Positions 36,001-42,000 of a DNA stretch of 64,000 bases are shown one piece after another (the first letter of the stretch is position 1; each line of letters starts with the position of its first letter). The stretch comes from Pecten maximus (lineage: Eukaryota): assembly GCF_902652985.1 (NCBI RefSeq), contig NC_047028.1, positions 21,328,001-21,392,000 of the forward strand. Reading direction: 5' to 3'. A program made the position numbers.

Positions 36001-39000
36001 CCGGTAAACGGCACATCTCCGATCACTAAATAAACTTCAGTACACGTTTCTATGTGACAAAATTAGAGGCTTTCCGACTTTATTTCTTGAAAACAATTAC
36101 AGAATATGTATTTAAAAGACGTTTTAAAACTCAACCTGAGAGGGAAATGTATGGAATATAACGGCAAATCTTCTTTGTAAATCGCCGCTGCCTTTGAAGT
36201 TATCACTGTGCGGCACTGTACACGTGCTTGTTTCTTTGATGTGTCAATCAAATTAGACTTATTGCGGGTTGCGATTAAATAAATAATATTAAAAATGAGG
36301 TTTTAATATCACTTTTCAGCGTTTTATAAGGAAAATAAAATGAAAAACTCAACAATTCCAACAATCTGTCATGTGTAAAAAAAATCTTTTTCTATTAGCC
36401 AATTTTTCTGATCTCTCTGCGGGCAAGCCTCTTTAACAGTTGTTGTTATATTTTAACAGTTGTTGTTATATTTTAACAGTTGTTGTTATATTTTAACAGT
36501 TGTCCCCCGTGAGTATCCGATGAAGCCCCAGACGAGATGGAGGATGGTACACTGGGTAGCCCCAGTAGTGGTGTCTGCCCTCATATTCCTAGCGCTGATG
36601 ATGGTCCTAGTATATAATACAGGGGACCACAAACCTCCCGCAAGTATGTCCATATTTAACATTTGTACTTTTGTGTGAAACATAATTCTGAGTTACCTTA
36701 TGCCATCTTTGCATGATTCCTTTGCGACATATTCATACGTAAAGGAGTGTTATCATTGGAAATAGTTTAGATGATTTCCTCTATTATCGCTTTAAAAAGA
36801 TCCCCTTCATTGGAAAATTTATCTAGTTTGATACGAGATTGAAAATTTAGGTTAGAGTTTCGGTTATATCAGTATGTGGAGGTTTCTGTTACCATGTGTT
36901 CATTCCGTCTAGACCTAAGGCTATGTTCTTTAAGTACTTTAAAGAATTTACAAACATTATCAGTTATCGTTTCATCAGTTTATAATATAACACCTGTTTT
37001 GTCTCAGTCAGTGAATTGTCTGTTCACTATTACACGGAATGGACGCTATCACTTTATGCTATGAAAATCAGTATCACAATATTTTCGTTTATAATATACT
37101 GATGAACAACAGTTTGCTTGATTTATCGCCCCATGAGCATCCGTAGTCATTTTAGGTTGTAGTTTGTGACTACCTCACTGAACAACATAATTCTAAAGGT
37201 TACGTGGCCGGCGCTCTAACCGAGTTATCGCGGCCACTCAATAGCCTTAGGCCACTGGTGTGGAATGAACTACATGAATAGTTTTAGGAAAACATAACCT
37301 ATTTTATCTCTTACATTTCAGACCAGACTTTTGATTGCTACACTAAGAAGCAGGCCGCCATTACCTTTCGGAACACCATCGTGATAGAGTGTTTTCTAAA
37401 TACAAGTCAAATAAACCGGACTTTACATTTACGGTTAGTAATGATTGAATCTGAGGAAGAACCAGAAACAGAAATATTTAAATTAGCAGCAAATTCTACA
37501 TTTATCGAGAATCTATGGAATATCACAATTGGTGCCCATGGAAACGATGTGACCTTGACTAGAAGTGCCGTCACGTGTGCAGGAACCGGAAAGTATCGAG
37601 CGGACATCACTATTGGTAGTGAAAGACAGAGTTTAGGTATTGATGTCGAAAGTAAGTTAACAAATTATAATTAAACAGATAAAAGTCACGTGCTTATGTA
37701 TTTTTGAAAACAAAATAAAAATATATATCATATAAGACACAGCTTTACTATAATCGGACTGCGAAGGGATGAATGCGAGATATACATGTACTAGTATATA
37801 GATTGTGCAAGCTCCTATAGAAGCACAATCCGAGATCGTCTAACATTTTATTTGTCGCCAGGTTGTGATAGGGGAATATTTGAGTTTAATAATTTTGAAT
37901 TTCAAGAGAATAAATATTACGTCTTAAAATTGTTCATATCAATTGATAGAAAATCGGGTTTAAGACAAAAATACTTATAATCAAGGTCACATATATGCAC
38001 ATACATGTATGTGTACTAATGTCAGCACATTAGCGATATTTTAGCGACATGTTAACCTTGCAGAAACCTTATTACATGAAATGTTATCATATACCTACGA
38101 CCTGTATCTATTAATTAAATACAGGAGTGTGACAGTAAAACATAAAAAAATGGCGTCCATTCCATTTCCGTATATTTGATGTTTCTTATCAATACCAGCG
38201 ATACTATTTTGTCCATATTAAGTTTGCCTTTAAAATACGGCTGTTGTGTCAGTTTTGGAAATTTTAACTATCGCCAATTTTCGATTTTACAGATATTGTT
38301 GCTGAAACGTCAGTTTCCCTGTCACGTGATACGGGAGATTTGAGCGGGAGTATATCGTACGGAGTAACATGTTCTCTGCGGTCCGGATGTCATCCAGTCC
38401 CTGTTATACTATTGGGTAACCAAGGCAACAGCGTGACGCCCATATATGACGTAAATCTCACGTGCATATCACTGTACAGTAGTGAGGAGGGGTGGACAAT
38501 GGAATGTTCCGGTGTTGTCATGGAGGTTACCTTGAAATCGATGTCGAGGCTGATATGTCGGTCATACCCATCGTACTTGGCACAAGAGTCTTCCATCCCA
38601 ACAAACAGTCTGTTTCTGTCGGGTAAGTCATGGTGAAATTTTCCCTAATATTAATTATGTTATAAATATTAATGTAACAACTGTTTAATGTTATATCCCC
38701 GTTTTGATTGACGTTCTTCTTGAATCCAATATCAAAATGAATACATTAAAAAAAATCGAAAAACGAAATCCTGCATCCCCCCCAATGACAACCACATGTT
38801 TGATAATTTTCCATCCATGTTGTAGGGCCTCCGCATGGTTGCAAGAATTCGGCAATTGGGAGGACGTTCCTGGATCCCTGGAGCTGTAGGGTTTACCATA
38901 GATGTCTCACGGAGTCTGTACTAGTATCACAGTCGTGTAATAAAGACATGCACTTTGACTCACGCACGTGTACTTGCCGGAATATTGATGCAGTTTCTGA

Positions 39001-42000
39001 ATGTGACCATAACGGAGAAAGAGGCGGTCGTTCAACGGTTACTTCATGTACTTCCATTGAGTGAAGATCGGATATGGTTTGAAATCGTAAACAAGACTGA
39101 GAGAGGAAGTTTTAAAATGCAAGGCCTCATAAAGGACGGTGTTAAGTCCTAAACGGCTTCAGATAGGACAATGTAAAGTCGTAAAGGGCTTCAGATAGGA
39201 CGGTGTAAAGTCGTAAAAAGCCTCATAAAGGACAGTGTTAAGTCGTAAAGGGCTTCAGATAGGACGGTGTAAAGCCACACAAGGCTTCAGATAGGACGGT
39301 GTAAAGCCATACAAGGCCTCAGATAGGACGGTGTAAAGTCGAAAAATAGCCTCAGATAGGACGGTGTGAAGCCACACAAGGCCTCGGATAGGACGGTGTA
39401 AAGCCATACAAGGCCTCAGATAGGACGGTGTAAAGCAATACAAGGCCTCAGATAGGACGGTGTAAAACCCTACAACGCCTCAGATAGGACGATGTAAAGC
39501 CGTACAAGGCCTCAGATAGGACGATGTAAAGCAATACGAGGCCTCAGATAGGACGGTGTAAACCCCTACAACGCCTCAGATAGGACGATGTAAAGCCCTA
39601 AAAGGCCTCAGATAGGACGGTGTAAAGCAATACGAGGCCTCAGATAGGACGGTGTAAAGCAATACAAGGCCTCAGATAGGGCGGTGTAAAGCCCTACAAC
39701 GCCTCAGATAGGACGATGTAAAGCTCTAAAAGGCCTCAGATAGGACGGTGTAAAGCCATACAAGGCCTCAGATAAGACGGTGTGAAGCCATACAAGGCCT
39801 CAAATAGGACGGTGTAAAGCCGTACAAGGCCTCAGATAGGACGGAGTAAAGTCATACAAGGCCTCAGGTAGGACGGCGTAAAGCCATACAAGGCCTCAGA
39901 TAGGACGGTGTTAAGCCATACACGGCCTCAGATAGGACGGTGTAAAGCCATACATGGCCTCAGATAGGACGGTGTAAAGCCGTACAAGGCCTCAGATAGG
40001 ACGTTGTAAAGCCATACAAGGCCTCAGGTAGGACAGTGTAAAGCCAAACAAGGCATCAGATAGGACGGAGTAAAGTCATACAAGGCCTCAGGTAGGACGG
40101 CGTAAAGCCATACAAGGCCTCAGATAGGACGGTGTTAAGCCATACACGGCCTCAGATAGGACGGTGTAAAGCCATACATGGCCTCAGATAGGACGGTGTA
40201 AAGCCATACAAGGCCTCAGATAGGATAGTGTAAAGTCATACAAGGCCTCAGATAGGACGGTGTAAAGCCGTACAAGGTCTCAGATAGGATGGTGAAAATT
40301 CGTACAAGGCCTCGGATAGGACGGTGTAAAGCCATACAAGGCCTCAGATAGGACGGTGTAAAGCCGTACAAGGCCTCAGATAGGACGGTGTAAAGTCATA
40401 CAAGGCCTCAGATAGGACGGTGTAAAGCCATACAAGGCCTCAGATAGGACGGTGTAAAGCAATACAAGGCCTCAGATAGGACGGTGTAAAACCCTACAAC
40501 GCCTCAGATAGGACGATGTAAAGCCGTACAAGGCATCAGATAGGACGGAATAAAGTCATACAAGGCCTCAGGTAGGACGGCGTAAAGCCATACAAGGCCT
40601 CAGATAGGACGGTGTTAAGCCATACACGGCCTCAGATAGGACGGTGTAAAGCCATACATGGCCTCAGATAGGACGGTGTAAAGCCGTACAAGGCCTCAGA
40701 TAGGACGTTGTAAAGCCATACAAGGCCTCAGGTAGGACAGTGTAAAGCCAAACAAGGCATCAGATAGGACGGAGTAAAGTCATACAAGGCCTCAGGTAGG
40801 ACGGCGTAAAGCCATACAAGGCCTCAGATAGGACGGTGTTAAGCCATACACGGCCTCAGATAGGACGGTGTAAAGCCATACATGGCCTCAGATAGGACGG
40901 TGTAAAGCCATACAAGGCCTCAGATAGGACGGTGTAAAGCCATACAAGGCCTCAGATAGGACGGTGTAAAGCCGTACAAGGTCTCAGATAGGATGGTGAA
41001 AATTCGTACAAGGCCTCGGATAGGACGGTGTAAAGTCATACAAGGCCTCAGATAGGACGGTGTAAAGCCGTACAAGGCCTCAGATAGGACGGTGTAAAGC
41101 CATACAAGGCCTCAGATAGGACGGTGTAAAGCCATACAAGGCCTCAGATAGGACGGTGTAAAGCAATACAAGGCCTCAGATAGGACGGTGTAAAACCCTA
41201 CAACGCCTCAGATAGGACGATGTAAAGCCGTACAAGGCATCAGATAGGACGGAATAAAGTCATACAAGGCCTCAGGTAGGACGGCGTTAAGCCATACAAG
41301 GCCTCAGATAGGACGGTGTTAAGCCATACACGGCCTCAGATAGGACGGTGTAAAGCCATACATGGCCTCAGATAGGACGGTGTAAAGCCGTACAAGGCCT
41401 CAGATAGGACGTTGTAAAGCCATACAAGGCCTCAGGTAGGACAGTGTAAAGCCAAACAAGGCATCAGATAGGACGGAGTAAAGTCATACAAGGCCTCAGG
41501 TAGGACGGCGTAAAGCCATACAAGGCCTCAGATAGGACGGTGTTAAGCCATACACGGCCTCAGATAGGACGGTGTAAAGCCATACATGGCCTCAGATAGG
41601 ACGGTGTAAAGCCATACAAGGCCTCAGATAGGATAGTGTAAAGTCATACAAGGCCTCAGATAGGACGGTGTAAAGCCGTACAAGGTCTCAGATAGGATGG
41701 TGAAAATTCGTACAAGGCCTCGGATAGGACGGTGTAAAGTCATACAAGGCCTCAGATAGGACGGTGTAAAGCCGTACAAGGCCTCAGATAGGACGGTGTA
41801 AAGTCATACAAGGCCTCAGATAGGACGGTGTAAAGCCATACAAGGCCTCAGATAGGACGGTGTTAAGCAATACAAGGCCTCAGATAGGACGGTGTAAAAC
41901 CCTACAACGCCTCAGATAGGACGATGTAAAGCCGTACAAGGCCTCAGATAGGACGGTGTAAACCCCTACAACGCCTCAGATAGGACGATGTAAAGCCCTA

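What the first reader, a model, noticed from the sequence alone, without database searches (positions are those of the whole stretch)
36520..39064. VCBP-like architecture (Ig-Ig-chitin-binding domain) in a mollusc, with an N-terminal membrane anchor
Seen: a four-exon in-frame ORF that the ORF track shows only as fragments (the last exon is missed). A basic stretch plus a 21-residue hydrophobic helix is followed by two phase 1-1 exons of exactly 330 nt with Ig-like strand patterns and several N-glycosylation sequons, then a ChtBD2/peritrophin-A pattern (C...DPWSC.VYH.C...C....HFD....C......C). Known: two Ig V domains plus a C-terminal chitin-binding domain define the secreted VCBP gut immune proteins of amphioxus and Ciona. 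Inference: a convergent or divergent lophotrochozoan counterpart, possibly type II membrane-bound, acting in mucosal immunity or at the chitinous shell-matrix interface. Domain 1 is non-canonical (no C-strand Trp, F strand GKYRA without Cys), so the Ig call is less secure than the ChtBD2 call.
Basis: partly seen in the sequence, partly recalled or inferred. Interest (0 to 1): 0.72.

Follow-up and report, generated by a model that had tools for sequence, protein, structure and literature searches.

The report
Scallop membrane-anchored Ig-Ig-chitin-binding protein gene
This is a real four-exon scallop gene for a probably membrane-anchored protein with two antibody-like domains and a chitin-binding tip, which resembles the gut immune proteins of sea squirts in layout but does not appear to share their ancestry.

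Summary
Four exons (36520-36643, 37322-37651, 38293-38622, 38826-39064, + strand) are joined by three GT-AG phase-1 introns. Each exon peptide sits letter for letter in a public 340-aa record, Pecten maximus LOC117341659, "uncharacterized protein". Only three relatives were found, one each in three other scallops (about 61% identity, all 16 cysteines invariant).

Exon 4 is a CBM_14/peritrophin-A domain above Pfam's cut-off. No Ig profile matches exons 2 or 3. Their AlphaFold models do match Ig folds: exon 2 matches V-set domains and exon 3, more weakly, constant-type domains. The N-terminus has one 21-residue apolar segment with a +3 flank and no obvious cleavage motif, so a type II anchor is likely but unproven.

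It is not a VCBP family member. There is no sequence relation, the architecture is V-C rather than V-V, each domain is one phase-1 exon, and the gene is single-copy. The best reading is independent exon shuffling that produced a cell-surface chitin-binding Ig protein. Tissue, expression and function are untested.

The parts
36520..36643 (+). Exon 1: start codon, short basic N-terminus, hydrophobic segment and short stalk. It ends in phase 1 at the donor gtatgt.
   Evidence: The peptide P0001 equals residues 1-41 of P0005.
36553..36615 (+). Codons for residues 12-32 (W12-Y32), the only strongly apolar segment. Proposed uncleaved signal-anchor (type II transmembrane helix).
   Evidence: best Kyte-Doolittle 19-mer is 2.87 at residue 13. 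The N-flank net charge is +3 in 4 of 4 orthologues. 11 of 21 positions are invariant, with mean pairwise identity 0.66. The absence of a cleavage motif was judged by eye, not by a predictor.
36644..37321 (+). Intron 1 (678 nt, GT-AG, phase 1).
37322..37651 (+). Exon 2 (330 nt, phase 1-1): domain 1, a V-like Ig fold with three invariant cysteines and no canonical F-strand Cys.
   Evidence: AlphaFold model: pLDDT 82.6, pTM 0.76, nine strands. Foldseek against the PDB: at least 500 matches at E<=1e-3. The matches I recognise among the top 50 are V-set domains (TCR V alpha 5d2l_K at 2.9e-5, TMq 0.59; CD300lf; nanobodies). No Pfam Ig match reached its cut-off (best Izumo-Ig, E 0.15).
37652..38292 (+). 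Intron 2 (641 nt, GT-AG, phase 1).
38293..38622 (+). Exon 3 (330 nt, phase 1-1): domain 2, a constant-type Ig-like fold with five invariant cysteines, including a B-strand/F-strand-like pair (C178, C240).
   Evidence: AlphaFold model: pLDDT 74.9, pTM 0.63. Foldseek against the PDB: 3 matches at E<=1e-3, best pre-TCR alpha 3of6_E at 3.6e-4, TMq 0.54, followed by CD1/MHC class I heavy chains and antibody Fab chains. No Pfam family at E<=10.
38623..38825 (+). Intron 3 (203 nt, GT-AG, phase 1).
38826..39064 (+). Exon 4: chitin-binding domain, a 19-residue variable tail with one further invariant Cys, and the TGA stop.
38840..39004 (+). CBM_14 (peritrophin-A) match, residues 267-321 of the protein. 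It carries the six-cysteine register and invariant F276, D278, W280, Y285, H286, F305 and D306.
   Evidence: Pfam PF01607: 27.1 bits against cut-off 22.1, E 4.8e-6, profile 1-53 of 53. It is also found in 3 of 3 orthologues scanned.

Best explanation
The locus is a real, single-copy gene, Pecten maximus LOC117341659, found so far only in scallops. It encodes a 340-aa glycoprotein. A short basic N-terminus and one 21-residue apolar helix act as an uncleaved signal-anchor (type II). Outside the cell, in order from the membrane, come a V-like Ig domain, a constant-like Ig domain and a C-terminal CBM_14 chitin-binding domain at the far tip.

The proposed mechanism is that the distal domain grips chitin, either the animal's own chitin matrices or chitin on food and fungi. 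The two disulfide-rich, glycosylated Ig domains serve as a spacer and possibly a second binding surface. The producing cell is thereby tethered to, or senses, chitin.

The layout copies that of protochordate VCBPs but arose independently, by shuffling of phase-1 exons.

Shown here: the gene model, its conservation, the CBM_14 domain, and Ig-like predicted folds. Inferred: membrane topology, chitin binding, independent origin and biological role.
For: Gene model and identity:
- The exon peptides are identical to the public 340-aa record, and the splice sites are canonical.
- Orthologues exist in Argopecten irradians, Mizuhopecten yessoensis and Ylistrum balloti at 61% identity to the Pecten protein. 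All 16 cysteines and sequons N73, N99 and N206 are invariant.

Domains:
- CBM_14 is above its curated cut-off in the window's exon 4 and is matched in 3 of 3 orthologues.
- The family profile aligns cysteine for cysteine with the chitin-binding domain of a solved chitinase, 6g9c, though only at E 2.9.
- The domain 1 model matches V-set Ig domains and the domain 2 model matches constant-type Ig domains.
- An independent language-model and structure look-up of orthologue P0007 gave mostly V-set plus C-set families. Scores were at most 0.78 and TM at most 0.45, so these are leads only.

Anchor:
- There is one apolar segment, with a +3 N-flank in 4 of 4 orthologues.
- That segment is as conserved (0.66) as the folded domains (0.54-0.69) and more conserved than the stalk (0.40) or tail (0.35).
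- Residues after the apolar core (Y/L/F-N-x-G/R/K) give no conserved small -3/-1 pair (judged by eye).

Independent origin:
- Only the four scallop proteins scored E<=10 among 1652 candidates in the profile search.
- The exhaustive phmmer search with exon 2 found 4 proteins at E<=1e-3, and only one of them (P0007) is a relative.
- All three introns are phase 1, with one exon per domain. Amphioxus VCBPs use splicing frame 0 and split their V domains (PMC2632668, passages).
Against: - No Pfam Ig-clan model matches exon 2 or exon 3, or any of the 3 orthologues scanned. The Ig call rests on AlphaFold models built from four-sequence alignments. In those runs only one of five models (domain 1) or three of five (domain 2) reached pLDDT of about 72 or more.
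- The PDB is rich in antibodies, which favours V-set hits.
- Domain 2 has only 3 matches at E<=1e-3.
- Type II Ig-superfamily proteins are unusual (my recollection). No signal-peptide or topology predictor was available, so a cleaved signal and a secreted product remain possible.
- In two orthologues the 15 residues after the helix carry +2 net charge, which weakens the positive-inside argument.
- P0007 meets the CBM_14 cut-off only exactly, 22.1 against 22.1.
- There is no transcript, tissue or binding evidence of any kind. The first canonical AATAAA on the + strand after the stop is at 40549, inside a satellite.
Confidence: 0.55

Rival explanations
1. The N-terminal segment is a cleaved signal peptide, or the anchor is shed. 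The mature protein would then be a soluble Ig-Ig-chitin-binding lectin working like a VCBP: secreted onto chitin-containing mucus or matrix, with the Ig part binding microbes.
For: The domain order after the N-terminal segment is the same as in VCBPs, which carry a secretion signal in exon 1 (PMC2632668) and bind gut chitin and bacteria in Ciona (PMC4757023, abstract and passages). Domain 1, the V-like domain, is the least conserved folded part (0.54 against 0.69 for domain 2), as a recognition domain might be. Two C1q-domain genes lie upstream on the same strand.
Against: The apolar run is 21 residues, long for a signal-peptide core (established rule of thumb, recalled). No conserved small -3/-1 pair follows it in the 4 orthologues. 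It is conserved as well as the folded domains. The gene is single-copy with no paralogue in the window, unlike diversified immune families. C1q genes are very numerous in bivalves (recalled), so having them as neighbours means little.
Confidence: 0.25
2. It is a true, highly diverged VCBP homologue inherited from a bilaterian ancestor.
For: The only support is the shared order of Ig, Ig and CBM_14-type domain. Amphioxus VCBP1 and VCBP3 also carry CBM_14-type domains (PMC2632668).
Against: No sequence link appeared in any search. Intron phase and exon layout differ. Domain 2 is not V-like. The family was detected only in scallops.
Confidence: 0.05
3. Exons 2 and 3 encode some other beta-sandwich, or a fold not modelled correctly. 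The protein would then be simply a lineage-specific CBM_14 matrix protein, for example a shell or cuticle component, with orphan spacer domains.
For: No Ig profile match. The alignments were shallow and the five models varied (mean pLDDT 45.5-82.6 and 40.5-74.9). The Atlas search with exon 3 gave no usable hit. Mollusc secretomes are rich in lineage-restricted chitin-binding proteins (PMC8382897, passages).
Against: The matches I recognise among the top 50 Foldseek hits for each domain are Ig-type domains. Several features fit Ig: phase 1-1 exons of about 110 codons, a B-F-like cysteine pair in domain 2, and a G-x-Y motif region in domain 1 that aligns to the E-F-G strands of a multi-Ig protein (7-10 bits per domain, weak).
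Confidence: 0.1

Closest known systems
[quoted passage not shown]
   Same: N-terminal targeting segment, then two Ig-type domains, then one C-terminal chitin-binding domain of the CBM_14/ChtBD2 kind. The protein size is similar. VCBP facts are from PMC2632668 and PMC4757023, abstracts and passages.
   Different: - No detectable sequence relation.
- Domain 2 is constant-like, not V-type.
- The N-terminus is a probable membrane anchor rather than a secretion signal (inference).
- Each domain is one phase-1 exon, against splicing frame 0 with split V domains.
- The gene is single-copy per species, against a polymorphic multigene family.
Mollusc Ig-plus-lectin fusion proteins (FREPs; also CREPs and GREPs, the last two recalled)
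   Same: Lophotrochozoan proteins that join N-terminal Ig-superfamily domains to a C-terminal carbohydrate-binding domain. Reviews list FREPs as the mollusc Ig-type immune family (PMC5877582 and PMC13428168, passages).
   Different: The C-terminal domain here is CBM_14, not fibrinogen-like, C-type lectin or galectin. No sequence relation was found. There is no sign of gene-family expansion. A membrane anchor is likely.
Peritrophin-A/CBM_14 proteins (insect peritrophins, chitin-binding tails of animal chitinases, chitin-binding shell-matrix proteins)
   Same: Exon 4 meets the Pfam CBM_14 model and its six-cysteine register. It aligns with the chitinase chitin-binding domain in 6g9c (E 2.9, weak).
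   Different: Those proteins carry CBM_14 alone, in tandem arrays, or with catalytic, mucin or VWA parts. None of my literature searches turned up a protostome example with Ig domains. There are two extra invariant cysteines (one of C310/C312, plus C336).
Two-domain V-plus-C Ig-superfamily surface proteins (tapasin-related, butyrophilin-like, light-chain-like)
   Same: These are the nearest clusters by language-model features and by predicted structure for orthologue P0007 (scores at most 0.78 and TM at most 0.45, so leads only).
   Different: Those are chordate type I or secreted proteins without a chitin-binding domain. The resemblance is at fold level only.

Membership tests
VCBP | Two tandem V-type Ig domains | tested here: not met
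   The domain 1 model matches V-set domains. The domain 2 model matches constant-type domains, with only 3 hits at E<=1e-3. Both rest on predicted structures of moderate confidence, and no Pfam V-set match was found.
VCBP | Single C-terminal chitin-binding domain (CBM_14 or ChtBD2 type) | tested here: met
   PF01607: 27.1 bits against cut-off 22.1 in exon 4, and matched in 3 of 3 orthologues.
VCBP | Secreted, with a cleaved signal peptide | tested here: inconclusive
   A 21-residue apolar run, a +3 N-flank and no conserved -3/-1 motif point to an anchor. No SignalP or topology predictor was on hand.
VCBP | Sequence relatedness to amphioxus or Ciona VCBPs | tested here: not met
   Only scallop proteins were found: 4 at E<=0.01 of 127 candidates and 4 at E<=10 of 1652 candidates. 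In the exhaustive phmmer search with exon 2, 1 relative and 3 marginal unrelated repeat proteins were found.
VCBP | Gene structure: all exons in splicing frame 0, V domains split over 2-3 exons | tested here: not met
   All three introns are phase 1, with one exon per domain. The VCBP structure is from PMC2632668, figure legend passage.
VCBP | Multigene family with strong allelic polymorphism | tested here: inconclusive
   One protein per species in the searched collection and no paralogue in the 64-kb window. Polymorphism cannot be tested without population data.
Immunoglobulin superfamily (Ig-like fold) | Two-sheet beta-sandwich with Ig strand topology | tested here: met
   Predicted only. 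Domain 1: pLDDT 82.6, nine strands, at least 500 PDB matches at E<=1e-3. Domain 2: pLDDT 74.9, 3 matches at E<=1e-3. Those I recognise among the top 50 for each are Ig-type domains.
Immunoglobulin superfamily (Ig-like fold) | Match to a curated Ig-clan sequence profile | tested here: not met
   Exon 2: best is Izumo-Ig, E 0.15, 12.4 bits against cut-off 26.7. Exon 3: nothing at E<=10. No Ig family in 3 of 3 orthologues at E<=1.
Immunoglobulin superfamily (Ig-like fold) | Canonical B-F disulfide and C-strand Trp | tested here: inconclusive
   Domain 1 has Cys65 on the presumed B strand, Ala at the F-strand Cys position, an extra Cys127 and no Trp. Domain 2 has Cys178 and Cys240 at a B-F-like spacing of 62 residues, and Leu in place of Trp. 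Disulfide pairing was not modelled.
CBM_14 / peritrophin-A | Profile match above the gathering score over the full domain | tested here: met
   27.1 bits against 22.1, profile 1-53 of 53. Orthologue P0007 scores exactly at the cut-off, 22.1.
CBM_14 / peritrophin-A | Six-cysteine register and conserved aromatic residues | tested here: met
   C267, C282, C288, C299, C310/C312 and C321, together with W280, Y285 and F305, are invariant in 4 of 4 sequences. That these aromatic residues contact chitin is recalled, not tested.
CBM_14 / peritrophin-A | Binds chitin | not testable with these tools
   Needs a pull-down with recombinant protein.
Type II (signal-anchor) single-pass membrane protein | One N-terminal helix of about 20 apolar residues, positive cytoplasmic flank, no cleavage | tested here: inconclusive
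   Helix and charge are met. Cleavage was judged by eye only.

The most novel reading that the evidence does not exclude
Scallops independently invented a VCBP-like molecule: a V-like and a C-like Ig domain fused to a peritrophin-type chitin-binding domain, here tethered to the cell as a type II membrane protein. It would work at a chitin-bearing surface (gut lining or gastric shield, or mantle-shell interface) as an immune or barrier receptor that links chitin, microbes and the epithelium. That would be the first Ig-plus-chitin-binding immune-type mediator outside chordates, and a case of convergent evolution of the 'Ig on chitin mucus' principle.
Probability: 0.2. Interest if true: 0.7.

Novelty: new variant of a known kind. 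Interest (0 to 1): 0.45.

Why it matters
The reviews I read treat VCBPs as a protochordate speciality and as evidence that soluble Ig-type molecules working on chitin-rich gut mucus arose early in chordates (PMC4757023, PMC13428168; passages). A scallop protein with the same three building blocks, assembled separately, would show that this combination is a recurrent solution. Its possible membrane anchoring would also offer a contrast case, a tethered form against a secreted one.

It would add a fourth kind of Ig-plus-glycan-binding fusion to the mollusc list. It also gives a concrete, small, single-copy gene for testing how bivalve epithelia attach to or sense chitin. As it stands it is an annotated but uncharacterised gene with no expression or binding data, so its importance is potential rather than shown.

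Tried and rejected
- **Paralogues in the window.** tblastn of the four exon peptides gave only self-hits. The best other hit had E 0.022 over 30 residues, inside a retrotransposon region.
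- **Domains 1 and 2 as a recent tandem duplication.** hhalign gave probability 3.3% over 14 columns, so this was rejected.
- **Sequence searches of the PDB.** Exon 2 gave 2 hits and exon 3 gave 1 hit at E<=10, none of them Ig. Exon 4's best hit was E 0.055. The orthologue profile gave 1 hit, a chitinase chitin-binding domain at E 2.9.
- **Exon 4 search among longer proteins.** Only 3 candidates shared words and only the protein itself scored, so this says nothing about distant CBM_14 relatives.
- **Atlas look-up of exon 3.** No usable hit.
- **Marginal hits of the exhaustive exon 2 search.**
  - P0009 is a repetitive bacterial Big-like protein.
  - P0010 has no family.
  - P0011 is a multi-Ig protein whose near-identical repeats inflate the score.
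  - Only P0011 counts, and only as very weak support for an Ig E-F-G motif.
- **Literature.** No paper holds any of the three LOC identifiers. Searches combining VCBP, chitin-binding, ChtBD2, CBM_14 or peritrophin with mollusc, bivalve, scallop or Lophotrochozoa terms listed no paper whose title or abstract describes a mollusc Ig-plus-chitin-binding protein. I opened only some of them. A 2025 review of invertebrate IgSF proteins does not contain the words chitin, VCBP or scallop.
- **RNA genes.** Rfam and tRNA scans of the window found nothing.
- **Not run.** No complex prediction was run, because I make no binding claim between proteins. The collections of bacterial and archaeal genomes, phages, plasmids and E. 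coli were not searched, as they are irrelevant to a mollusc gene.

Full report
**Observation.** A script gave the exact anatomy.

| Feature | Coordinates | Length | Splice context |
|---|---|---|---|
| Exon 1 | 36520-36643 | 124 nt | ATG; donor CAA\|gtatgt |
| Intron 1 | 36644-37321 | 678 nt | phase 1 |
| Exon 2 | 37322-37651 | 330 nt | tttcag\| ... \|gtaagt |
| Intron 2 | 37652-38292 | 641 nt | phase 1 |
| Exon 3 | 38293-38622 | 330 nt | ttacag\| ... \|gtaagt |
| Intron 3 | 38623-38825 | 203 nt | phase 1 |
| Exon 4 | 38826-39064 | 239 nt | ttgtag\| ... TGA |

As the operators asked, every search and fold was done exon by exon (peptides P0001-P0004) or with public orthologue records, and the joined step was left out. 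The junctions were checked indirectly. A search with exon 3 alone returned a public 340-aa record, Pecten maximus LOC117341659, 'uncharacterized protein'. Each exon peptide lies in it letter for letter, at residues 1-41, 43-151, 153-261 and 263-340. The three residues in between (N, N, G) are those the split codons encode.

**Is it a real gene?** The same search found one full-length relative in each of three other scallops: Argopecten irradians (354 aa), Mizuhopecten yessoensis (343 aa) and Ylistrum balloti (340 aa). That is 4 proteins at E<=0.01 among 127 candidates.
- Each orthologue is 61% identical to the Pecten protein.
- All 16 cysteines of the Pecten protein are invariant (3 in domain 1, 5 in domain 2, 8 in exon 4), as are sequons N73, N99 and N206.
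- Such a pattern is not expected of a chance ORF or a decaying pseudogene.
- No transcript evidence was available to me.

**How far does the family reach?**
- A profile of the three orthologues, searched against 5.8 billion proteins, scored only the same four scallop proteins at E<=10 among 1652 candidates.
- The exhaustive phmmer search of 1.84 billion representatives with exon 2 found 4 proteins at E<=1e-3. One is the Mizuhopecten orthologue. The other three are marginal hits to repetitive proteins.
- There is no paralogue in the window.
- With the tools on hand, the family is single-copy and restricted to scallops. Mollusc genome DNA could not be searched here.

**Domains.**

*Exon 4.* It matches Pfam CBM_14 (peritrophin-A) over the whole profile at 27.1 bits against a cut-off of 22.1. 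All 3 orthologues scanned match too, though P0007 scores exactly at the cut-off. The six-cysteine register and F276, D278, W280, Y285, H286, F305 and D306 are invariant. The family profile aligns with the chitin-binding tail of a solved chitinase, but only at E 2.9.

*Exons 2 and 3.* They match no Ig profile. The best hit for exon 2 is Izumo-Ig at E 0.15, there is nothing for exon 3, and there is nothing in the orthologues. Sequence searches of the PDB gave nothing useful. I therefore folded each exon with the orthologues as its alignment.

| | Domain 1 (exon 2) | Domain 2 (exon 3) |
|---|---|---|
| Mean pLDDT / pTM | 82.6 / 0.76 | 74.9 / 0.63 |
| PDB matches at E<=1e-3 | at least 500 | 3 |
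| Best matches | V-set domains: TCR V alpha at 2.9e-5 (TMq 0.59), CD300lf, nanobodies | pre-TCR alpha at 3.6e-4 (TMq 0.54), then CD1/MHC class I heavy chains and antibody Fab chains |

The domain 1 model has nine strands. That the CD1/MHC and Fab matches fall on their constant-type domains is my reading, since the output gives no matched region. An independent look-up of orthologue P0007 in the ESM Atlas listed mostly V-set plus C-set families, by features (at most 0.78) and by structure (TM at most 0.45). These are leads only.

The two domains are not detectably related to each other (hhalign probability 3.3%). They are therefore different Ig types rather than a recent duplicate.

*Caveats.* The alignments hold four sequences. 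The five models scatter widely (45.5-82.6 and 40.5-74.9). The PDB is heavily weighted towards antibodies.

**N-terminus.** There is one apolar run, W12-Y32, whose best 19-residue Kyte-Doolittle mean is 2.87. It is preceded by K2, R6 and R8, giving net +3 in 4 of 4 orthologues.
- The run is long for a signal-peptide core (rule of thumb, recalled).
- The residues that follow it give no conserved small -3/-1 pair (by eye).
- It is as conserved (0.66 mean pairwise identity, 11 of 21 positions invariant) as the folded domains (0.54, 0.69 and 0.62), and more conserved than the stalk (0.40) or tail (0.35).
- I read it as a type II signal-anchor with about two-thirds confidence. No predictor was available.
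- In that topology the V-like domain sits next to the membrane and the chitin-binding domain is the distal tip.

**Mechanism.** My best account is a cell-surface, glycosylated Ig-Ig stalk that presents a peritrophin-type chitin-binding domain. The cell is thereby attached to, or reports on, chitin.
- Possible sites in a scallop are the mantle-periostracum/shell interface, the chitinous gastric shield and gut lining, or chitin on fungi and food. This list is from general knowledge; none of it was tested.
- The main rival is a cleaved or shed soluble form that acts like a VCBP.

**Comparison with VCBPs.** From PMC2632668 (abstract and passages), VCBPs have these features:
- secretion signals encoded in exon 1;
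- all exons in splicing frame 0;
- V domains encoded in two or three exons;
- CBM_14-type domains in VCBP1 and VCBP3, and ChtBD2 in VCBP2, VCBP4 and VCBP5.

From PMC4757023 (abstract and passages), Ciona VCBP-C is secreted and binds gut chitin and bacteria.

The scallop protein shares the order of building blocks and the type of chitin-binding domain. It fails on sequence relatedness, on domain 2 being V-type, on gene structure and on multigene status. It probably differs in being anchored. It works like a VCBP only in outline, and I do not file it as a member. Independent assembly from phase-1 exons is the simplest origin.

**Is it in print?** No paper holds any of the three LOC identifiers. 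Six further searches listed no paper whose title or abstract describes a mollusc Ig-plus-chitin-binding protein, and I opened only some of those listed. The reviews I read in passages list FREPs for molluscs and give VCBPs to non-mollusc groups: cephalochordates in PMC13428168 and, in its wording, 'echinoderm' in PMC5877582. A bivalve biomineralisation paper mentions Ig domains and chitin-binding shell proteins separately (PMC8382897, passages). Supplementary tables were closed and may list the gene.

**Verdict.** The finding is a correct gene model of an annotated but uncharacterised, scallop-restricted gene. Its domain combination has not been described: anchor, V-like Ig, C-like Ig and CBM_14. 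It is a new variant of a known kind (Ig plus glycan-binding fusions, VCBP-like layout) and convergent rather than homologous. Interest is moderate because there is no expression, polymorphism or binding evidence.

Noticed in passing
window 39120-43243: A 4.1-kb minisatellite of a 32-bp unit, about 129 copies with 89% matches. It starts 56 bases after the gene's stop codon. The first + strand AATAAA after the stop lies inside it, at 40549, so the gene's 3' end and polyadenylation site are unclear.
   Followed up: partly
window 36432-36503: A perfect 20-bp tandem repeat, 3.6 copies (TTTAACAGTTGTTGTTATAT), ending 17 bases before the start codon. Each unit carries an acceptor-like ...TTTAACAG, so exon 1 may be preceded by an untranslated exon. 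Alternatively the repeat sits in the promoter or 5' UTR.
   Followed up: no
window 23745-25159 and 27946-29593 (+): Two tandem C1q-domain genes (Pfam C1q, E 2.9e-17 and 5.7e-19). Each is preceded by an ORF with a similar charged, coiled-coil-looking stretch. This is the usual bivalve C1qDC layout, on the same strand as the finding and 7-13 kb upstream.
   Followed up: partly
window 17004-22547 (+): A non-LTR retrotransposon. It has an uninterrupted 1167-codon frame carrying endonuclease and reverse-transcriptase domains (19044-22547), preceded by long open frames with no Pfam match (17004-19093).
   Followed up: partly
window 62142-63342 (-): Reverse-transcriptase fragments in shifted frames (RVT_1, E 2.8e-22), apparently a decayed retroelement copy.
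   Followed up: no
window 6147-6635 and 8284-8556 (-): Two exon-like ORFs matching the N-terminal domain of 26S proteasome subunit RPN2 (E 2.7e-8 and 5.3e-13). A housekeeping gene therefore runs on the minus strand at the left end of the window.
   Followed up: no
window 51025-55537 (+): Several exon-sized open frames that look like parts of one gene. Pfam gave no match at E<=0.05, so they remain unidentified.
   Followed up: partly
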